Shown here piece by piece: positions 8-62,902 of a stretch of 64,000 nucleotides of DNA. A program made the translations under genes and the position numbers. Source of the DNA: Pelagomonas calceolata (taxonomy: Eukaryota); NCBI GenBank assembly GCA_918797485.1, contig CAKKNE010000002.1:1302001-1366000 (forward strand). Reading direction: 5' to 3'. The notes beneath the pieces are model-generated. The model was not told the DNA's origin, ran no database searches, and saw nothing but the letters and a program-made list of their open reading frames with translations. Numbering within the stretch: the stretch's first letter is position 1; every line of letters begins with the position of its first letter.

Positions 8-778
8 GTGCTCAAGCCGTTGCTACGGAAGGCCGCCGAGGCGTCTCAAGGGACACTCATACTGAAGGAAATTGACGTCGACAAAGAAAGACCGATCGCG
101 GAGGCGCTGGAAGCGACGCAGCTGCCCTGCGTCTACAGCGTGAGGGACGGCAAGTTGCGAGACGTCATCGTCGGCCTGCCGCGGTCGCACCAGGACCTCG
201 CGGCCTTCGTCATGCGCGCCATGGATGGGGAGGGCGGTGCTTCCACAGTTCCGGGCAGCCGGACCGTCAATTTGGCGCGCGTCGCGGGCTCGGCCGCCCT
301 GGGCGCGGGCGGCCGCGAGGCCCTGGCGGCCAAGTGCCGCGGCGCGCTCGACGCGTGTAGGGAGCTTGCGGCGTCCGACAAGGATACGGTGATGGAGGCG
401 CTCAAGACGACGAAAGCGTACCTAGAGCGGGCCTACGGCGGCAAGCCGGTCTATCGCGACAACGCCGTGTTTGTGGAGAACTGTGTGGAAATCAAACAGT
501 GAGTTAGGTTATCCTGAGATTTGTTGCGGGACGACGTCGCGTCGATGGCGTGGGGCGCCCGAAATTTGATTTCCACACAGGTGGAGAAGGTGGCCCCCTG
601 CGCGCCGGCTTTGGACTTGTTTGCGGCGGCTGGGTACGTGGAGATTCCCGGCGACCCTGAGGGTTCAGATGACGAGAAAAGAGACGCCTTACACCCGACG
701 CATCGCAATCTAGCCGTCTTCGAGCTCTGCTGCGCCGAGATCGACAAGGCAAGAGATGAGCTGCGCGTGATGACGTGA
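8..778 (+). CDS. Thioredoxin-like + PUB-like domain protein (5' partial; exons <8-472, 581-778)
   Basis: ORFs 8..502 and 521..778 join in frame (NAVF|VEKVAP) after removing intron 473-580. Trx-like 'IDVDKE..IA..L....LPCV' and PUB-like 'ALDLFAAAGY' segments are present. Confidence 0.65.
473..580 (+). mobile_element. Introner intron (GT-AG, 108 bp); element 481-580
   Basis: TIRs CTGTGTGGAAATCAAA (481-496) and TTTGATTTCCACACAG (565-580). Perfect 8-bp TSD GTGGAGAA at 473-480 and 581-588. Splicing restores the frame. Confidence 0.95.
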
Positions 779-4860: not shown

Positions 4861-6304
4861 TTAAGAAAACCGGAACGTGCACGCGAGCGGCAGGTGGTCC
4901 GACGGGTGCACGAGGTCCGGGATCGCGCCGGCCGGCGCCGAGACGTCGCTCCGGTCCAGGGGCTCCAGGGACTCGTCGTAGAAGACATAATCGATCCAGA
5001 GTGACCGGTCGCCGTTCTTCGACGTGCACACGCCCTCGCAATCCGCCCAGCCGTGCACGGGCGCGAAGGCGTCCCGTAAGGTCCGCTCGCCCCAGAAAAA
5101 CGCGCCGTCGCCGCCCCACCCGGTGGCGTGCTTGAAGCCCACGTCGCCGCTCCAGACGTGCGTTTCCGACGGCGGCGTGTTGAAATCCCCACACAGCACG
5201 ACCGCGTCGTCGTCGTCCGCTCTCTCGGCGACTATGTTCTTTATTGTGGCGAGCTCTCCGGCGCGCACCTCGCCGGGAAAGCGGGTCACGCCGGGCCCGT
5301 CGCCTGTGTGGAATCAACCAGTGAGTCGGGTGCACACCGCTACGCCATCGAGCAGGCATCGCGTGCAGGTCCTGATTTCCACACAGCCCGTCGCGCGACG
5401 TCGTCATGAGGTGCACGGCCACGACACACACAATGCGACCCGACGCCTTGTGGCGCAGCCGCGCCACGGCGGCCTGGCGCCGGTCCGCCGCCGGCAGGTC
5501 CGTGGCCGTGACGCCGCCGCCCTCCGTCGGCGGCACGACGAGCGGGTGCCACTTCTCCAGCAGGTCGTGGTTCGACAAGGACACAGTCGTAGTGTTGCAG
5601 GCGATTATTCGATCGCTCTGCTCTTCGACGAGCTCGAACACATCGGAGCGCCAGAAGACGCCGAGGCCCGCCGGCGGCGTCCGGCCGATCAGCGGGTCCG
5701 TGAAGAAGGCGCCGTCGTAGCCTTGGGACGCCATGGCCGCGTGGAAGGGCTGGTCCCCGTTCTTGTACGAAGCGTGTACATTATGGATGTCGTACTCGCA
5801 CAGCGCCACGATGTCGGCGCATGTACAGACGTCAAACACGCGCGGGCCGCGCGCGGCCCAGTCGTAGACCGTCGCGTCCTGCTCGGAGACCTCCGCGAAG
5901 AGCCGGAGGCCCTCGGCCTCGCCCAAGGAGCGCCGCAGGACGCCTCGCAAAGTGGTGGCCACGGTAGGCAGGCCTCCCTTGACGTACAGCACCTTGTCCT
6001 CACTCTCAAACTTCAGACCGCTCAGCTTCTCAGGAATGTCGCTATCGGACCTAAGCACCCTACACCCCCACAACGCGCGCATCGCCGCGTAGTCGCCGCT
6101 ATGGAAGTTCTTGTGCCAGTGGCGCTTGTACTCGTCATCCACATTCGTGCGCCGCCAGGTGCCAAAGGCCTCGCCCGTCTTGTCCTCGATCCGCGCTCGC
6201 GTCTGCGGCGAGACGTTGAGCACCCACGGGATCGTGTTGCTGCCGAGGGACCGCGCCAAGATGTTGTAGGTCAGCACTCGGAAGGAGTGGCCGTCCGGTT
6301 GCAT
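4861..6304 (-). CDS. CCR4/nocturnin-like EEP phosphatase/deadenylase (exons 6304-5395, 5303-4861)
   Basis: Motifs 'VLTYNILA', 'LCE', 'LCGDFN', 'IDYVFY' and 'PSDHLP'; frame restored by the introner intron. Confidence 0.85.
5304..5394 (-). mobile_element. Introner intron (GC-AG, 91 bp); element 5304-5386
   Basis: TIRs CTGTGTGGAATCA and TGATTTCCACACAG. Perfect TSD CCCGTCGC at 5296-5303 and 5387-5394. Spliced product reads SRDGPGVTRF. Confidence 0.93.
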
Positions 6305-28730: not shown

Positions 28731-30767
28731 CTATGTTAATTGATAGTTCGGTCCACCCCCTCCTTCCGGCACCGTCCACTTGATATACTCGAGCGGCATC
28801 TTGATCGAGCAGCACTTGCAGTGCACGCAGTTCTGGGCGTTAATGACCAATTCGTCGTCCGGGTACTCGTAGACGCCCGCGGGACAAAAATTCGCCTCCG
28901 GGGCCCCGTATTCCCGCAGCGACCGCGCCGTCTTGCCCACCATGGAATCCCGAAACTCGTCCTTCACGACTAAATGGGAAGGCTGCGTGTCCGCGTGGTC
29001 GACCACGGCCCGCGCGACGTTCTCCAACAGAGGGAACGAGAGCTTGCCGTCGGGTTTTGGATATTGTATAGGTTTGGCCCGCGGGTCGTCGACCTTCGCC
29101 GTCGTCGAGGAGTCGACGGAGTCGTGGCGGAAGGTCCAGGGCTCCTTGCCCTTCATCACATAAGCTGAGGCACCCGCATAAGCTACCCCGCCGAAGAGCC
29201 CCCACTTCTTAAACGCGGGCTTGTAGTTCCTCACACCATATAACTCGTCGTAGACCCAGGACGCCTCGAAGGCCTCCTGGTAGCCGACGGCTTCCCGTTC
29301 CTCGGTCTGGATACTCTCAAACACCTGTGTGGAAATCAAAATTTTACGGCGCGTTCACGCCATCGACGCGACGCCTGCTCGATGGCGTAGTGATGCCGGC
29401 TCCTCATCGCTCGACCGAGCCAGTACGGCCGCGTCATCGCCGAGAAATGACTTAGTGAAGAATTGTCGGGTGCACCCGACGCACTGGTTGATTTCCACAC
29501 AGACAAACACGTTCTCCGCGGCGAGCATGCCGCTCTTCATCGCCGTATGCGTGCCCTTGATCTTGGGCACGTTCAGGAAGCCCGCCGAGCAACCGATTAA
29601 GACACCACCGGGGAACGTGAGCTTGGGCACCGATTGCAACCCTCCTTCATTAATCACGCGAGCCGCGTAAGCGACACAATCGCCGCCCTCCAAGTGTTTG
29701 GCCATGGCCGGGTGGTGTTTGAGTCGTTGAAATTCTTTATATGGACTGAGATGAGGGTTCGCGTAGTCCAATCCAACAACTAATCCCACATGTACTAGAT
29801 TAGGAGCCATATGATATAAGAAGGACCCACCGTACGTGTCAGACGCCAGGGGCCAGCCGATCGTATGTTGGACCAGGCCCGGTTGGCACTTCTCTTCGGG
29901 AATTTCCCAGACCTCCTTGACCCCTAGTCCGAACTGCTGCGGGTCGCAGTGCTTCCTCAAGTCGAAGATGGCCATGACCTCCTCGCTGCAGGAGCCGCGC
30001 GCGCCCTCGGCCAACAACGTCTGCTTGGCCAGGAGCTCCATGCCCGGCTCGTAATTTTCTCCCTTCGAACCGTCCTTGTTCAGGCCCACATCCCTTGTAG
30101 CGACGCCGCGCACACCACCACGATCGTCGTACAACACTTCGGCGGCCGAGAAGCCGGGGTAGACCTCCACACCTAGAGCTTCGGCCTTCTCGCCGAGCCA
30201 ACGGACGACCTGACTTAATGAAGCCACGTAATTGCCGTCGTTGTGCAACGATGGAGGGCAAGGTAAGGGTATGGCGCCCGTCTCTGAATGCAAGTAAGAG
30301 AAGGTGTCCGCCTCGACCTTCGTTTGTAAAGGGGCATCGGCGTCTTCGCGCCAATCCGGGAGGAGCTCGTCCAGCGCTCGCGGCTCAAACACATTACCGG
30401 AGACAACATGAGCGCCTACTTCACTTGCCTTCTCGAGCAAGCAGACGGAAATTTCATTTCCTGTCGTCTCCTCCAGCTGCTTGAGGCGGATTGCGGCGGC
30501 TAGTCCCGCGGGGCCGCCTCCCACAATTACGACGTCGTACTCCATGCTGTCCCGCTCTATCGGCTCCTCCTCGCCGTCGACGGTGCTGGAGAGGCCGCGC
30601 GCCGCGGCTGGCGTGCTGGAGAGGTGGCGCGCCGCGGCTGGCGTCCGGGAGAGGCGGCGCGCCGCGGCTGGCGTGCACCGAGCGATAGTGCTCCGAGCAG
30701 TGGACAAGCTGCGGAGGCGCGTCGCTGTCGCGGCGCGCGCGCGGAGGAGTATCCTGGCCGACCGCAT
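28731..30767 (-). CDS. ETFDH: Electron transfer flavoprotein-ubiquinone oxidoreductase (exons 30767-29511, 29324-28731)
   Basis: 'DVVIVGGGPAGL', 'PKIKGTHTAMKSGMLAAE', 'FCPAGVYE', 'NCVHCKCC'; mitochondrial presequence. Confidence 0.96.
29325..29510 (-). mobile_element. Introner intron (GT-AG, 186 bp); element 29325-29502
   Basis: Perfect 15-bp TIRs CTGTGTGGAAATCAA and TTGATTTCCACACAG; TSD TCAAACAC/ACAAACAC (7/8). Confidence 0.95.
30583..30676. repeat. 30-bp x3 tandem repeat in the ETFDH presequence (TPAAARxLSS)
   Basis: Units at 30583, 30613 and 30643. Confidence 0.88.
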
Positions 30768-43943: not shown

Positions 43944-44256
43944 CTAACTATATTTTGGTATTATTTTATTAAGTCACTAACAACACGTCGCCATACCCTC
44001 TCGTCGACGGCGTGGGGGCGGTCACGCAGATCTCCTCGCGTCGGCTCACGGCTAGTGCCCGAAGCTAGCGTAAGCCGCTTCGAATCGAGCGCGAAGCTGC
44101 CGCACACGTGCCGCGCCGGCGAAAGGGCTACCACAAACGCGCGCGCCTTGCCTGCTTTGCGTCGTCGCAGTGATCGCGAGGCCCGACTTGTGCCCCATCA
44201 GCGCGCCATCGCCGCGTTTTTTACCCCACCAGGGCTGCCCGGCACGCGTGTCAAAA

Positions 44257-47082
44257 ATGGAGCGCCAAAAGGCCACCACATTGACCGCCGCCTGCCAGGC
44301 CTCTGCAACAGCACAACTGCCCCAGCTCAACATCTCCGAGAGGGAAGCGTTATCGTTGAGGCAGCACGCTGGTGATCAGACGACTATCACGATTGAGTGG
44401 GTCGTTGATGTGGCCGATAATAATCTGAATTGGTTCGTCGCGACGGCTTACAGTATAGATACGGTCCGTCGAGTACTGAGGGTCGCCATACCGGACCGCG
44501 ACGAGCCGACGTGGGAGGGGGATTTGCCGCTCGATCCAAAAACAATTCATTTACTGGAGTGCTGCGACAACAAATCAATGGCGTTGTATAAACAATGTTG
44601 CCGAGAGGGCAGCATAAAGTGCAAGTGGACCGTGGAGTGGTGTATTGATGGAGCCTGGTTTTCCGGCGAGGCTTTGTATTATGGCCGACTCGCGAACGTC
44701 GTCTACTGTTCTGATGGGAGGAACGTAGCTCTACACGAAGTGACCATAGATGAGAACTTGCGGTTGGTCGAGTGCCTCGATGACGCGTCGCGAGGTGAGT
44801 TCGAAGAGCTCGTCGTCGACGGCGTCGTGCGGTGGCGGGGGCCGGACGGGGATGATCATGAATTACAACAAGATCCGGTGGCTGCGGTGGCGCGCCGACC
44901 GGCGCGAGCCCTCGCACAAAATTGTGAACAGCTAGACAGATTGGCGACGGACATGGCCCACTGCCTGGCGGACGCGCTGCGGATGCGCTGCGCGTCGGAC
45001 GTCGAGCAGTACGAGGCCGCTTCTTTACTTAAGAGGCATGTTGTTTGTGGGGACTTGGACGCTGCTGACAGGTTAGATGAAGATGGAAGGCGAGATGCTC
45101 GGGCCGACCTCGACCGACGGCGGAGAGAAGCGCAGGAATCTTGTTTAGGTGCTATTCAAAGATGCGAGGGGCGTTTTTGGAGGGCTGCTGCCACGGGTCT
45201 GTTCTTTCGTCGACGTTATAAAGCGGGCGATGCGGTGGAAGTGGCTCTTTGCAGAGGTCTGGAAACCTGCAGAGGTGTCGTGGCCAAGTGCCATGACAAC
45301 GAGACCTATGACGTGGACCTCGACGGCGACCGGCCGGAAGTCGGCGTGCAAATACCGCCCGAATATCTGAGGCCGTCTGTTCAGTCAAGACAGAAGGCCC
45401 AGGGGAACCTGTTCGCTGGAGTACATGACGAGGCATCAGAATCTAGAAGGAGAGAGTTACGAGCCGCCGTGGCCGACATGCTGCGGGAGCGGGAAGCGTT
45501 ACGAAGCAGATTGGATGCGCTCACGCGCGAAAAGGAACATCTCGAGGACGTCATAGGTGTGCAACAAACTTCACAAAAGCCGCAGCGCCGCCACCAGGGC
45601 CCCGCCGATCGAACGACGCGCATCTGGTGCGGCACGATCCGTCTAGGATCAAAGGATGATTTAGGAGCCGCATGTGCGGCCGCTTTACCAGTAGGAACGA
45701 AAAATGAAGTGGAGAGAGCTGCCGGCTTCGACGTCGTCGTTTGTGCATTACAGGGGGAGCTAGATGGCTCTAAATGTGTCGCGGCTCTCAAGGCGCGGTT
45801 GCCGGGCGCCTGGGCCGCAACTTCTGCAAATTGTGGGAACTCTCACTTAATTGTATTTGCGCGGTCGTCCGCAGTTGTCAAGGACTCTGTGGTAGCGGTC
45901 CCTGCGCCAAAAGCCGCCGTCGTCACCGCGACGTTGCGAAGCGGCGCTCGCTTGGCCTTCTGCGCGGTCTGTGCCGGTGAGTACGACACACCACTTTCTA
46001 CGGACCAGGCCGTACGATCCGCGAGAGATATGATGTGGCCCGCTTCCAGTGAAGATGTCGGACGGCCGCCGCTCGACTGTTGTGGAGGCGCGGACCACGC
46101 CTTCCTGATTGGGGACCTGGGCTTCGGCGCGTCTGCGGTCGGTCAGGCCGCCTCCCAAGAGTTAGTAGCTGCAGAGGACTGGGCCTCGCTGGCGAACCAC
46201 GACGAGCTGCGCCAGAGCAAGAACGAAAGAAGAGCATTATCAGGGTGGGAGGTGTCGCAACCTAGATTTCCGCCGACCGCGCATAGATCATGTTGGCGCG
46301 AGCGGATCCTGTGGCGGTCTTCGCCTGGTCTCGTCGATCGCGTGCGGTTGGAGCTGCACACGGCCCGAGATATAGGTTTGGGGCGGGACGCCGTCGTCGC
46401 GGCCTTCTCGTTGAGTCCGCCGACGCGAGCTCCCACACCGCGGCCCGTGGAAATCGCCTTTCCTTCGTTGAAAGTATCTTTACGCTTAGAAGCGTCGTCA
46501 CTGGAAGGACTGCAAGCGGCAGCTAAAGGTGTGGGGCCGTTACTGGTAAGTGTGGACGCGTCGCACGACCGCACTGGCGTTCCGCCGCGGACGTCTGATC
46601 GTTCGTTAGAGGCGGATGGAGACTCGTTGGACGAGGGCGAGCCCGCAGCTACGTCAATCTGGACTTTTGATGATGACAAGAAGCTCGACTCGTTGAGAAC
46701 GCTCGCGGACCCCGACGACGACGCCGATCACATCACGGTGCGCGTCCTTCGAAGGGTCTGGCGCGAGGACAAGCAAGCTTTTGAAGATAACGGCGTGTTA
46801 ATTGGGGCGGCGTTGCTGTCTGGGAGGGCTTTGGCCCGGCGCATCTTGCGAAGTGAGGCGGCGGTTGATTTCCAGGAGCCATTACTGTTGCGAGGCGTCT
46901 CCATCGGCACGCTGCACGGTTCGGCGGCTCGCGCTAAAGGAAGACTGTTGACGAAGGCCGCAGAACCTTTGGACGCGAGGATGACGGCCGGGGCCTCTTC
47001 CGAAAAACAGAAGAAGTCCTCAGGCTGGGGCCTCTTCGCCTCGAAAAAGAAGCTGTCCGAGAACTACAAGACGCGTAAGTAG
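44257..47082 (+). CDS. Protein with Tudor-like, coiled-coil and degenerate inositol 5-phosphatase-like domains
   Basis: 'FLIGDLGF', 'DEL', 'FPPT', 'WRERILW' resemble 5-phosphatase motifs with substitutions. Confidence 0.65.
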   Translation: MERQKATTLTAACQASATAQLPQLNISEREALSLRQHAGDQTTITIEWVVDVADNNLNWFVATAYSIDTVRRVLRVAIPDRDEPTWEGDLPLDPKTIHLLECCDNKSMALYKQCCREGSIKCKWTVEWCIDGAWFSGEALYYGRLANVVYCSDGRNVALHEVTIDENLRLVECLDDASRGEFEELVVDGVVRWRGPDGDDHELQQDPVAAVARRPARALAQNCEQLDRLATDMAHCLADALRMRCASDVEQYEAASLLKRHVVCGDLDAADRLDEDGRRDARADLDRRRREAQESCLGAIQRCEGRFWRAAATGLFFRRRYKAGDAVEVALCRGLETCRGVVAKCHDNETYDVDLDGDRPEVGVQIPPEYLRPSVQSRQKAQGNLFAGVHDEASESRRRELRAAVADMLREREALRSRLDALTREKEHLEDVIGVQQTSQKPQRRHQGPADRTTRIWCGTIRLGSKDDLGAACAAALPVGTKNEVERAAGFDVVVCALQGELDGSKCVAALKARLPGAWAATSANCGNSHLIVFARSSAVVKDSVVAVPAPKAAVVTATLRSGARLAFCAVCAGEYDTPLSTDQAVRSARDMMWPASSEDVGRPPLDCCGGADHAFLIGDLGFGASAVGQAASQELVAAEDWASLANHDELRQSKNERRALSGWEVSQPRFPPTAHRSCWRERILWRSSPGLVDRVRLELHTARDIGLGRDAVVAAFSLSPPTRAPTPRPVEIAFPSLKVSLRLEASSLEGLQAAAKGVGPLLVSVDASHDRTGVPPRTSDRSLEADGDSLDEGEPAATSIWTFDDDKKLDSLRTLADPDDDADHITVRVLRRVWREDKQAFEDNGVLIGAALLSGRALARRILRSEAAVDFQEPLLLRGVSIGTLHGSAARAKGRLLTKAAEPLDARMTAGASSEKQKKSSGWGLFASKKKLSENYKTRK

Positions 47083-47155
47083 TTTCCACTAGTCGACCGT
47101 CACGTCGCCTATCCCTACAGTACGCCACGGTGGCGCACTCGGGCGGCGCGTGACG

Positions 47156-47596
47156 CTAGGGTGCGATTTACGCGGAAAAAACGCGTAAGTTACACGTAAA
47201 GCACCGCTACAGGAGATCCCACGTAAAAAACGGCGTAAAAAAGGAGGTATCCAAAAGTCCTTCCAGGGCTCTTCCCGAAGCCGGCGCTAGCGGCCCTCTA
47301 AGACTCTAGCTCGCGATCAGCAGCTCGCAGAGTGTGGCTGCCCCAAACGTTGTCAGAGCCGAGCCAATTGCTAGTTGCATGCTGTTGCGAGCAAGGTGTG
47401 CACTCTAGGTGTGCGCTTATGCGCCGTGCTCGTGCTGCTATTGAGCTGCGTGGCCACAAGGCCTTGTTTAGGGGCTCTGGCTGCGTGTGTGCGGGTTTTA
47501 TAAATAAATGCACGCGTAAATTACGCGTAAATTACGGCGTAAATGACGCTGGACCGTTTCTCACGTAAAGAACGCCGTGCGTAAATCGCACCCTAG
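47156..47596. mobile_element. Non-autonomous hAT-like MITE, 441 bp
   Basis: Perfect 18-bp TIR CTAGGGTGCGATTTACGC. Perfect 8-bp TSD GCGTGACG at 47148-47155 and 47597-47604. Clustered CGTAAA subterminal repeats at both ends. Confidence 0.93.
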
Positions 47597-47658
47597 GCGT
47601 GACGCCGCCGACTCGGACGAGTATATGTCCCAAAAAGCACTCTTAGGCCCCAGAAAAC

Positions 47659-48744
47659 TCAGCAGACCCCGGCCAGCTCCTCCTTGAAGGCGACGTTGTT
47701 CGCCAGCACGTAGAGGTCCGGCGTGTCCTTGTTCTCCAACAAATCAAAGGCCTTGCCCTTGAAGCCCGCCACGTCGACGTCGGGGTTCTCCAGTAATTCG
47801 TTGATGGCCGGATGCCGGGACTCGTCCCAGACCGCTAATTGGACCAACCTAGATCCGGTGGGATCCTTCTCGAGGTCAAACCCGCACCAGAGCAGTCTCT
47901 CCTTCAAGGCTTCGAGCGGCCCGGCGGAAGCATGCACGCCGTTGTCCGTGCCGTTGGGCTGCTCCGGTAGTCCGAGCGGGTCCCACTGCTCGAGGAGCTT
48001 CTTCCTAATCGATCCATCATTGGCTTGCTCGGGATTCGTCGCGCCGATGACGTCGTTCTTGAAGGCCGCCCAGGACAGACGCGCGGGGTCCCAGGCCACG
48101 ACTAGTAGATGCACTTCCGCGCCATCCTTCTCGTAGGCAGCTTTGAGTGATGGGTAGAAGCCGTTGACACAAAACAGGTTGTTCGACCCGCCGCCGCCGC
48201 CGTCCTCCTCCTCACTATCCTCTTCTTCCTCCTCTTCGTCGTCCCCACCCTTCAGCCGAGCCACATAGACGCCAGAAGCGATCTTGACCGTGGCGCCACA
48301 CGTCGTCCAGAGATTATTTAAGTCCTTCGGAGGCATCGGATCACCGCCCTTGCCGAGCTGAAGAGCGCAGGCCGACGCCGACTTGATGCACTCCGCCGCC
48401 ACCATGTCGTCGTAATTGCACCCGAAGGCCTCCTGGAACTTCTCCTTCGCTTCTGCTGTCGGTTTGAGGCCTTCGACGCCGTTCTCCGAGGCGTCGGCGA
48501 TCGCAGCGTAGTGCTTGTCCACAATCCCGCCCTCCTTGATGGCGTCGGCGCCGATGGAGCACCCGCCCAATATCTTCACCTTCTTGCTCAGCTCGTCCTT
48601 CACGAACTCGATACAATCGGGCTTGTGCGCATGCGGCTTCACAAACACGAGGCCGAAGTTCGCGTTGACTAAAGTGGAGGGGCTCACCTTCTCTTCCGGC
48701 TCCTTGAGCTCGCTGCCGTCCGGTAAAGAGCCGACCTGGCCCAT
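47659..48744 (-). CDS. Nucleoside diphosphate kinase-like protein, possible N-myristoylation
   Basis: 'FVKPHA', 'IGATNP..A..GSIR', 'DNGVHAS'. Confidence 0.8.
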   Translation of the reverse strand: MGQVGSLPDGSELKEPEEKVSPSTLVNANFGLVFVKPHAHKPDCIEFVKDELSKKVKILGGCSIGADAIKEGGIVDKHYAAIADASENGVEGLKPTAEAKEKFQEAFGCNYDDMVAAECIKSASACALQLGKGGDPMPPKDLNNLWTTCGATVKIASGVYVARLKGGDDEEEEEEDSEEEDGGGGGSNNLFCVNGFYPSLKAAYEKDGAEVHLLVVAWDPARLSWAAFKNDVIGATNPEQANDGSIRKKLLEQWDPLGLPEQPNGTDNGVHASAGPLEALKERLLWCGFDLEKDPTGSRLVQLAVWDESRHPAINELLENPDVDVAGFKGKAFDLLENKDTPDLYVLANNVAFKEELAGVC

Positions 48745-48950
48745 TGTCTTTCTCTCGGTCTCACGCCTACGCAACCGCCCGCGTCTCTTGGCTGCGTTTG
48801 CGCGCTTTACGGGCGCGGGGCAGCGCTATGGTTTTTCACCGGAAGCTAGAGCTGAGCTACTAGGGGCCGGCGCCACGTCGTGGTCGCTACCGACCGTCCG
48901 GGCAGCCGGTCCAGGGCTCTGTGGGCGAGTAGTGGTGCGCCCGGCTGCTT

Positions 48951-48974
48951 GCTAGTATCTTACATGCCGCTAGC
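48951..48974 (-). promoter_or_regulatory. Bipartite CTAG intergenic motif
   Basis: GCTAGTATCTTACATGCCGCTAGC between divergent genes. Confidence 0.65.
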
Positions 48975-61486: not shown

Positions 61487-62902
61487 AAGCTATACAAACG
61501 CGACATGCAGCCGTTTGAGTAGCCTTCCGTTCGCTAATGGTCCGAAGAGATCAATGGGACACGTACTGGGGGCTGAAAAAGGAATTTTTTTAATTCGCGG
61601 TGCGGAGGCGGACGATGCCACAGGCCGGCCGCGCCGGTTTAATCCTGTCAATCCCTGTCAAACAGGTCTCCCTGGGGTCGCCTAAGGTCGGTACTATACA
61701 CGTGCACGCGCCTACACCGCAGACGCCGCCGCTTCAAGCATTTTTGGCCGATTTCTCTCAGCAGACCACTCGGTTTAGCCATCTTTTGGCCATGGTTTGC
61801 TTCCAGAGCTCCCCGAGAGCATTAGGCTGCTGCATCGATGGCGTGTGCGGTGTAGGCGCTTACCCACTACCAGACCTACCCCGAGAGGCCTCCAGGAGCC
61901 GATCTGCCACCGAAAAAAGTGTGCAATTTGGGCCCGATAGCACCCGTTCCCGTCAAAAACGTCAATCACCCGAGGGCCCCCAGTAGTCGCCGTAGCGGCC
62001 TCGTCGGACCCCATACTACCCGAGCGATAGTCAATTACAAGTATATGACATCTACACGCCGAGAAGGGTACTTTGGGCTGCCCACGCTCGTGACGTGAAC
62101 ATCTTGATCTGGACCTCGCTTAAGTCAGTCGGTCATGGAACAAACGATCGCGTTATGGTCCATGGTGATGGTACACGGGCTGATGGTCGCAAGTCCAGTC
62201 ATTAAGTCCATTTAAGCAAGATACTGTGGTCGCGAGACCGATGACCCGCGCCGAGCATCTTTGGGTCTCAGAGCAATGTAGTACACAATCAAGCCGGTTA
62301 TCTGGCCCGTCCCGTAACCAAAGCGCCTGAAATGCAAATTTATTGTACAAACCACCGGTCTGGGCCCTTTCCAGTGCCCCGTCTCCGCACCGTCGTCCGC
62401 GGAGAACGGGCAAGTCGGTCGATTGTGAATAGAAGAACGGCGTTATGATCCATCCGGATAGTGTCGTCGCTGATACTCGCATACCCAGGTGCAGTGCCTT
62501 CCTTTGGGTAAACGCGAGGGCGTGGAGATGCTGATTCGCGCGGCTCTAACGGAGCATCTAAAATAAATAGGTAAGTGTTCAATCGGCCTAGATGGCATCT
62601 ACCGACAACAAACGAAACAAAACGAACATAAACTCGGGAGTTGTCTAGTAGAATTCTTCTCCCGCCCTCCGGGCGCGCGCCGTCGGCTCCGGTTCCGTCG
62701 AATTTGTATGAAAACTGGGCTGGAGTTGGTATGATGTACCAACTGGACGGTAGAAGGCGGCGCCAATCGCTGGTGTATTTTGGCGAGCCGCAAGACCTAG
62801 TGATCTAGCGTATCGACATACTAGGAATCCGTATATATATATACTAGTAGCTATTAGCGATTGATATTAATACAAGTATCCTAGTGGCAGCACGACCGGC
62901 GC

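What the first reader, a model, noticed from the sequence alone, without database searches (positions are those of the whole stretch)
47148..47604. Intact hAT-like MITE carrying the intergenic motif and having GC...AG ends
Seen: 441-bp element with 18-bp perfect TIRs, perfect TSD GCGTGACG and many CGTAAA subterminal repeats, inserted ~70 bp after the stop at 47082. Its core contains GCTAGCGGCCCTCTAAGACTCTAGC (47286-47310), a copy of the putative promoter motif, here in a convergent gap. The TSD starts with GC and the TIR ends in TAG, the same geometry that makes introners spliceable. Inference: a second family that may move a captured promoter, or be spliced from a 3' UTR as a proto-introner.
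Basis: partly seen in the sequence, partly recalled or inferred. Interest (0 to 1): 0.7.

Follow-up and report, generated by a model that had tools for sequence, protein, structure and literature searches.

The report
Algal mini-transposon carrying host promoter box
This is a real, multi-copy 441-base mini-transposon of a marine alga, likely moved by a hAT-type cut-and-paste enzyme; it carries a near-copy of the host's common upstream-of-gene motif and ends that could in principle be spliced, but here it sits between two gene ends with almost no RNA running through it and no splicing seen.

Summary
The element is real: 441 bp (47156-47596), perfect 18-bp TIRs, perfect 8-bp TSD, subterminal CGTAAA repeats. 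It is not single-copy. A TIR scan of marine metagenomes gave 47 loci, 45 with family sequence, at about 24 sites; five further sites have perfect 8-bp TSDs. Two copies show junction palindromes centred on the complement of the flanking base, the mark of hairpin-forming (hAT-type) transposases. No transposase partner was found. The 25-bp motif is a significant match to the host's upstream-of-gene box (0 of 600 shuffles reach its score). It is present in the young subfamily and absent from older and mini copies, but its spacing is off (19 against 16-18) and no outward transcription was seen. The proto-introner claim fails at this site: both flanking transcripts end outside the element, no TSD-to-end junction was seen, and family insertions show no GT/GC bias (7 of 40). 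RNA does show an internal 60-nt intron in another copy and an inward 5' end at 47472, 30 nt from a TATA box. The empty allele was not tested. Verdict: a new, ordinary hAT-like MITE family, of use as a non-intronic contrast to this genome's introner-like elements.

The parts
47148..47155 (+). left target-site duplication (8 bp), begins with GC
47156..47596 (+). 441-bp non-autonomous TIR element (MITE), young subfamily, 96.6-99.5% identical to 8 full metagenome copies
   Evidence: loose ends of reads and contigs fall at 47156 and 47596
47156..47173 (+). left 18-bp terminal inverted repeat, begins CTAG
47166..47240 (+). left subterminal array of CGTAAA / ACGCGTAA repeats (likely transposase binding sites)
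   Evidence: function inferred by analogy to Ac
47286..47310 (+). near-copy of the host upstream-of-gene motif, spacing 19 instead of 16-18
47349..47408 (+). internal 60-nt GT..AG cryptic intron, spliced in RNA that derives from another copy of the family
   Evidence: 52 and 34 joint reads; alleles match L011/L027/L031
47472..47472 (-). cluster of RNA 5' ends inside the element, pointing inward (leftward); the copy of origin cannot be assigned
   Evidence: 27 of 70 and 18 of 45 molecules
47496..47502 (-). TATAAAA box 30 nt upstream of the 47472 5' ends (likely element promoter)
   Evidence: role inferred
47512..47586 (+). right subterminal array of CGTAAA repeats
47579..47596 (+). right 18-bp terminal inverted repeat, ends CTAG (an AG end in either orientation)
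47597..47604 (+). right target-site duplication (8 bp)
44074..47082 (+). left flanking open frame (weak Exo_endo_phos2 hit, below the curated cut-off); its RNA fades before the element
47659..48744 (-). right flanking gene, 361-aa NDK-like protein; RNA 5' ends at 48810-48811, 3'-most fragment starts at 47628-47651
48951..48974 (-). host copy of the motif in the divergent gap upstream of the NDK-like and SET genes, 140 nt from the NDK-like 5' ends (reference for promoter geometry)

Best explanation
It is a recently inserted copy of a multi-copy, non-coding miniature DNA transposon that is likely mobilised in trans by a hAT-type (flank-hairpin) transposase and is likely near-neutral at this site, between two gene ends. 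Shown: TIRs, 8-bp TSDs at six sites, subterminal repeat arrays, many insertion sites, two subfamilies plus 98-109-bp minis, no coding capacity, and almost no read-through RNA at this site. Inferred: a transposase encoded elsewhere binds the CGTAAA arrays and TIRs, cuts with a hairpin on the flank and inserts with an 8-bp stagger; the copy persists because it lies beyond both 3' ends; the host motif was gained by the young subfamily as passenger sequence and does not fire a promoter here; the short inward RNA is driven by the element's own TATA box; GC..AG ends are a by-product of a CTAG terminus and a chance GC-starting target.
For: Multi-copy: contig depth 257-302 in four element bins against 16.6-17.7 in flanks (X9) and 30-111 against about 6 (X13), with loose ends at 47156 and 47596 (the tool warns this is no copy number). 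45 of 47 metagenome loci match the element, in 25 of 26 flank clusters. Perfect 8-bp TSD in 6 of 14 two-ended records, at 5 sites besides the window. L028 and L042 carry a filler of one base plus the reverse complement of the first 3 TSD bases, then the TSD minus its first base; this is the pattern described for Ac/Ds footprints (PMC5873905 passages). Structure parallels maize Ds1 (PMC3260210 passages). Window copy is 99.5% identical to L001 at another site. Both flanking RNAs end outside the element and 4 of 869 plus-strand reads at 47173 have this copy's allele. 7 of 40 junction 8-mers begin GT/GC against 14.4% background.
Against: No transposase domain in 44 ORFs of at least 200 aa scanned out of the 127 listed around the copies nor in 11 further proteins; no hAT annotation in the stored, truncated gene table of PMC9481584. 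The terminus CTAGG does not fit the hAT consensus YARNG as I recall it (not from a call). MULEs also give 8-9-bp TSDs and flank hairpins (PMC5499845). 8 of 14 two-ended records have no TSD, only 2 of them explained by footprints. No empty allele was seen; two DNA runs have contigs that overlap the right TIR by 29-30 nt, consistent with the insertion being present but just under the tool's 31-nt rule. RNA evidence is one sample, about 6% of each of two runs.
Confidence: 0.8

Rival explanations
1. Proto-introner: the element is spliced from a 3' UTR using the GC in the left TSD as donor and the terminal AG as acceptor, restoring the pre-insertion sequence.
For: The geometry is that of TSD-co-opting introners (10.1101/2022.06.06.494994 passages). 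The window's own introner-like family also has CT..AG ends and 8-bp TSDs that begin GT or GC on the gene strand in 4 of 4 copies with at most 1 TSD mismatch. The last 20 nt of the element are no poorer in pyrimidines than theirs (0.53-0.59 against 0.53-0.65).
Against: No such joint among the 6 listed; the site is barely transcribed (roughly 5-fold or less between the stop and the element, estimated from bin depths). No GT/GC bias at family insertions (7 of 40). No two-ended copy has long open frames running through both sides; the longest frame abutting any of 42 junctions is 195 codons, on one side only. In the expressed copy most plus-strand RNA ends before the terminal AG (depth 476, 182, 16.5 over three bins) and uses an internal GT..AG instead.
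Confidence: 0.08
2. Promoter carrier: the young subfamily captured a working copy of the host motif and creates new bidirectional promoters where it lands.
For: The motif match is far above chance. 15 of 17 host copies lie within about 310 bp upstream of a predicted coding start, in either orientation. The motif scores 21-35 bits in 11 of 12 young-type copies tested and below 0 in 3 old copies and 2 minis. One wild copy (L025) has both consensus halves intact.
Against: Spacing is 19 in all element copies against 16-18 in the 16 training copies; only 1 clear host copy with 19 was seen in 145 kb of loci. No outward RNA at this site: minus-strand depth 0.55 and 0.02 at 47079-47175, plus-strand depth 0 and 2 at 47661-47757. 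The internal 5' end points towards the motif. Copies are drifting (substitutions, a 9-nt insertion in L001). The old subfamily aligns loosely through the same stretch, so stepwise mutation is not excluded.
Confidence: 0.1
3. The element is a non-autonomous member of another long-TSD superfamily (MULE, P, KDZ or the unnamed family behind this genome's introners), not hAT.
For: Muta1 has 8- or 9-bp TSDs, subterminal repeats and flank hairpins (PMC5499845 passages). The CT start of the TIR is shared with the introner-like family. No hAT transposase was found.
Against: All 6 clean TSDs are exactly 8 bp. TIRs are short (18 bp), whereas MULE TIRs are typically over 100 bp, and Muta1 excision is mostly precise whereas hAT repair often leaves footprints.
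Confidence: 0.2
4. The element is the source of the genome-wide motif: host copies are relics of old insertions.
For: Both motif halves begin with CTAG, as the TIRs do.
Against: The 50 nt flanking 17 host copies match the element's motif flanks at 13.1 positions on average against 13.4 for random DNA, and no TSD longer than 2 nt surrounds them. The motif is missing from the older subfamily.
Confidence: 0.03

Closest known systems
Maize Ds1 (non-autonomous hAT, Ac/Ds family; PMC3260210, passages read)
   Same: About 400 bp, short TIRs, 8-bp TSD, short hexamer subterminal repeats, non-coding filler shared among copies. Ds1 is reported to be spliced from exons (two titles seen in that paper's reference list only).
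   Different: No sequence relationship was tested or is claimed. The TIR is 18 bp and starts CTAGG; the hexamer is CGTAAA, not AAACGG; no autonomous partner is known here.
Algal MITE-type introners, including Pelagomonas calceolata IEs and Aureococcus sp. introners (PMC9481584 Supplementary Note 3; 10.1101/2022.06.06.494994, passages read)
   Same: TIR element with an AG end and a TSD able to supply a GT/GC donor; 8-bp TSD as in the Aureococcus example; same CT..AG ends and 8-bp TSD as the introner-like family in this window.
   Different: Lies outside transcripts, shows no GT/GC bias at insertion sites, no end-to-end splicing seen, is longer (441 bp against 83-178 bp for the four introner-like copies measured), has a different TIR sequence.
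Muta1-type MULEs (PMC5499845, passages read)
   Same: 8-bp TSD possible, subterminal repeats, hairpin formed on the flank.
   Different: Muta1 has 145-bp TIRs, 8- or 9-bp TSDs and mostly precise excision; here TIRs are 18 bp, TSDs strictly 8 bp, and junction palindromes are seen.

Membership tests
MITE (non-autonomous TIR element) | short, non-coding, TIRs and TSD | tested here: met
   441 bp, 18-bp TIRs, 8-bp TSD, no ORF of 150 aa; no Rfam match at gathering level
MITE (non-autonomous TIR element) | many similar copies at unrelated sites | tested here: met
MITE (non-autonomous TIR element) | insertion polymorphism (empty allele) | tested here: inconclusive
   none of 47 loci carries this site's flanks; two DNA runs are consistent with the filled allele; no orthologous locus fetched (searches found none)
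hAT superfamily | 8-bp TSD | tested here: met
   window plus 5 further sites; 8 of 14 two-ended records lack a TSD
hAT superfamily | short TIRs with subterminal repeat arrays | tested here: met
   compared with Ac
hAT superfamily | hairpin formed on flanking DNA, leaving palindromic footprints | tested here: met
   L028 and L042 junctions match the description; 2 of 8 TSD-less records; shared with MULE and Transib
hAT superfamily | TIR starting YARNG (recalled consensus) | tested here: not met
   starts CTAGG; fits only from the second base; terminal C and G belong to the element in other copies
hAT superfamily | autonomous partner with a hAT transposase | tested here: inconclusive
   none in 44 + 11 proteins scanned; no whole genome was available
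Introner (TSD-co-opting type) | AG end carried by the element and GT/GC donor in the TSD | tested here: met
   at this site
Introner (TSD-co-opting type) | lies within a transcript and is spliced out | tested here: not met
   low power because the site is barely transcribed
Introner (TSD-co-opting type) | family-wide bias to GT/GC target starts and exonic sites | tested here: not met
   7 of 40 against 14.4%; contrast 4 of 4 in the introner-like family
TE-borne host promoter | carries the host promoter-associated motif | tested here: met
   spacing differs by one base
TE-borne host promoter | starts transcription outward from the motif | tested here: not met
   one sample
TE-borne host promoter | factor binding or open chromatin at the motif | not testable with these tools
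   needs ATAC, ChIP or a reporter

The most novel reading that the evidence does not exclude
This family is a latent introner: a sister of the genome's introner transposons (same CT..AG ends, same 8-bp TSD, possibly the same transposase lineage) that would be spliced precisely whenever it lands in an exon at a GT/GC-starting target, but whose young subfamily gained a host promoter box and an internal RNA end signal and so took the intergenic route instead. It would be a natural paired control for what turns a MITE into an intron factory.
Probability: 0.15. Interest if true: 0.65.

Novelty: new member of a known kind. Interest (0 to 1): 0.33.

Why it matters
As it stands it is an undescribed but ordinary MITE family; I found no description in the searches. 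Its value is comparative. One compact algal genome holds two short TIR families with the same end architecture, one found at GT/GC targets inside genes and one not, which makes the requirements for introner formation testable with a minigene. The footprint junctions give a mechanistic hint (flank hairpin) for pelagophyte 8-bp-TSD elements whose transposase is unknown. The host motif itself, found upstream of most genes where it occurs, is probably the more interesting object.

Tried and rejected
No whole genome was held, so genome-wide copy counts and the partner search could not be run. TIR scan of viral contigs: 0 hits. TIR scan of prokaryote genomes: 1 hit with only 19-21 bp of similarity, taken as chance. 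L045 and L047 are AT-rich, have no BLAST match to the element, and were dropped before counting sites. The NDK-like protein found no orthologous locus in viral or prokaryote collections. A candidate empty site for L037 at window 61945-62044 is a 100-bp repeat that diverges at the junction, so it was rejected; four other 'empty' candidates were paralogous repeats or the L012/L028 pair. ORFs inside or next to one-ended copies are host genes or unknowns, not transposases. Rfam gave only a weak snoRNA hit, 21 bits against a threshold of 50. Earlier scan notes gave nothing relevant. Only one read-mapping result was obtained, so further RNA runs, the other DNA runs and the window's introner-like copies as a splicing control remain unexamined. 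Huff et al. 2016 and Dennis et al. 1988 were not held; nothing here rests on their text.

Full report
Observation. The element is exactly as reported: 441 bp at 47156-47596, 18-bp perfect TIRs, TSD GCGTGACG on both sides, and CGTAAA repeats clustered at both ends, 9 on either strand against about 0.14 expected. A de novo search of the window for TIR-plus-TSD elements returned it, one 100-bp introner-like element, one 2.5-kb pairing of repeat words and otherwise only GCC-repeat noise. It is the only copy in the window. It lies between the stop of a 1002-codon open frame on the + strand (47082) and the stop of a 361-aa NDK-like gene on the - strand (47659).

Organism. No call names the species. 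The window is gene-dense at about 63% GC. The NDK-like protein is held in NCBI and MMETSP, with a 6.14-Mb contig, and marine metatranscriptomes hold part of the stretch. The window has TIR-bearing introner-like repeats, and many related loci are about 50% GC with housekeeping genes, as described for Pelagomonas calceolata (PMC9481584: main-text passages; supplement passages; first part of the supplementary notes; its figure S3 is a picture and was not seen). I infer a pelagophyte, likely P. calceolata.

It is a family. In two DNA runs, contig depth over the element is several to about 17 times that of the flanks, and loose ends fall at 47156 and 47596 (not a copy number). A TIR scan of metagenomes gave 47 loci; 45 match the element, in 25 of 26 flank clusters, about 24 sites once L018 and L044 are merged. 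Of 14 records with both ends, 6 have a perfect 8-bp TSD (L001, L012, L041, L010, L014, L033; five sites) and 8 have none. This resolves a local ambiguity between an 8-bp and a 9-bp reading in favour of 8. There is a young subfamily (8 full copies, 96.6-99.5% identical to the window copy), an old one (L012, L028, L041; 77-79%), separated with full support in a tree of 15 rows, and 98-109-bp minis made only of TIRs and subterminal repeats. None of the 47 loci carries this site's flanks, a weak hint that the insertion is not common in the wild; the collection may simply lack the locus.

Mechanism of movement. Two TSD-less records are informative. L028 is the same site as L012, but one junction reads as one extra base, the reverse complement of the first three TSD bases, then the TSD without its first base. 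L042 shows the same pattern at another site. Palindromes centred on the complement of the base next to the element are the described footprint of Ac/Ds hairpin repair (PMC5873905 passages). The flank-hairpin pathway is used by hAT, Transib and MULE enzymes (PMC5499845 passages). With strictly 8-bp TSDs, short TIRs and hexamer arrays like Ds1 (PMC3260210 passages), hAT is the best fit. I infer cleavage at one end followed by repair with the element kept. Against membership: the terminus does not fit the hAT consensus as I recall it, and no transposase was found in 44 of 127 nearby ORFs scanned, in 11 more proteins, or under hAT terms in a truncated gene table. 'hAT-like' is as far as the evidence goes. 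The other six TSD-less records (four junction pairs) are unexplained; adjacent deletion, recombination between copies or mis-assembly are all possible.

Splicing. In two poly(A) RNA runs of one sample (about 6% of each read), strand was calibrated on the two flanking genes. The NDK-like RNA has 5' ends at 48810-48811 and 3'-most fragment starts at 47628-47651. The + strand gene's depth falls to 37 and 24 in its last bin. At 47173, 513 of 516 and 352 of 353 plus-strand reads carry another copy's allele, so at most 4 reads run into this copy. None of the 6 joints listed joins the TSD to the element end. The test has low power because the site is barely transcribed, but that in itself removes the 3' UTR premise. 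Across the family, 7 of 40 distinct junction 8-mers begin with GT or GC against 14.4% background (the 40 include one junction of a different element and two near-duplicate junctions). In the introner-like family (TIR CTGTGTGG), 4 of 4 copies with a near-perfect TSD begin with GT or GC on the gene strand; four other pairings listed had poor TSDs and were not counted, and splicing of these copies was not checked in RNA. The expressed plus-strand RNA enters from a flank found in L011, L027 and L031 and shares their alleles. It splices an internal 60-nt GT..AG intron in 52 and 34 reads, about 8-9% of local depth, and mostly ends before the terminal AG. No clear protein-coding frame was seen upstream of that copy.

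The motif. The window holds 17 host copies at the score threshold used; 15 lie within about 310 bp upstream of a predicted coding start, in either orientation, and 2 do not (a rough codon-based gene model). The element's copy scores within the host range and above all 600 shuffles. It is present in 11 of 12 young-type copies tested (L001 is disrupted by an insertion) and absent from 3 old copies and 2 minis, so a gain in the young subfamily is likely, though unrooted. Its spacing is always 19; the 16 training copies have 16-18, one further window copy has 20, and one clear host copy with 19 was seen in the loci. At the host promoter at 48951-48974, the NDK-like 5' ends lie 140 nt away, pointing outward. 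At the element there is no outward RNA on either side. Instead, minus-strand 5' ends pile up at 47472 (27 of 70; 18 of 45 molecules), pointing inward, 30 nt downstream of TATAAAA, one of 8 TATA-consensus matches in 64 kb. Depth suggests a short RNA of roughly 200-250 nt within the element. A mismatch at 47473 in most copies may sharpen the peak by clipping, and the copy of origin cannot be assigned. I infer an element-intrinsic promoter, not a motif-driven one. Host copies show no element remnants or TSDs in their flanks, so the element is not the source of the motif.

Verdict. Observation confirmed; interpretation partly supported. This is a new member of a known kind, a Ds1-like, hAT-like MITE family, probably inert at this site (confidence 0.8). 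The introner and captured-promoter readings were tested in one RNA sample and not met. The latent-introner reading remains possible (about 0.15). I found no description of the family in the paper searches; supplements I could not see may list it as an unnamed repeat. Interest 0.33.

Noticed in passing
window, 17 sites from 1488 to 62825: Host motif GCTAGCG-N(3-7)-AGACACTAGC sits upstream of coding starts in 15 of 17 cases, in either orientation; contig depth at 48957 is about 170 times the flank in one DNA run, so it is genome-wide. Looks like a major bidirectional promoter element.
   Followed up: partly
window 481-580, 5304-5386, 29325-29502; L021 1122-1251: Introner-like family with TIR CTGTGTGGAAATC, AG end and 8-bp TSDs that begin GT or GC on the gene strand; same end architecture as the MITE.
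   Followed up: partly
L031 5575-6020 (also L011, L027): A copy without TSD in a low-GC, repeat-rich stretch is read through by a highly expressed polyadenylated RNA (depth about 650 against 380 for the NDK-like gene) with no clear coding frame; the RNA ends inside the element.
   Followed up: partly
L030 3200-3672 (also L003, L005, L007, L014, L032, L033): A degenerate copy upstream of a Not1 gene recurs in 7 metagenome records and is transcribed from its right flank into the element.
   Followed up: partly
loci L002-L043: Many recurrent and TSD-less copies lie in loci of 46-53% GC with housekeeping genes, like the low-GC putative centromeres of P. calceolata; assembly bias was not excluded.
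   Followed up: no
L001 motif region; L039 2450-2480: Inverted duplications inside or at the break of element copies look like footprints of other hairpin-forming elements.
   Followed up: no
L020 against L036/L038: Same right flank but different left flanks at the element's end, suggesting an element-bounded rearrangement or mis-assembly.
   Followed up: no
L013 853-1180: Element ends enclose a different, coding-like filler (a lysine-rich frame end), like Ds2 filler or a Pack-type capture; no Pfam hit.
   Followed up: partly
L007 8134 and L030 584: A second TIR element beginning CTAGGTTGCC with GGTAAAT subterminal repeats, possibly a related family.
   Followed up: no
window 61500-62050: Repeat-like stretch matching flanks of L031 and L037; probably another mobile element.
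   Followed up: partly
window 47472 and 48810-48811 (minus strand): Both mapped RNA 5' ends lie one or two bases before TAAA, a possible initiator pattern (two cases only).
   Followed up: no
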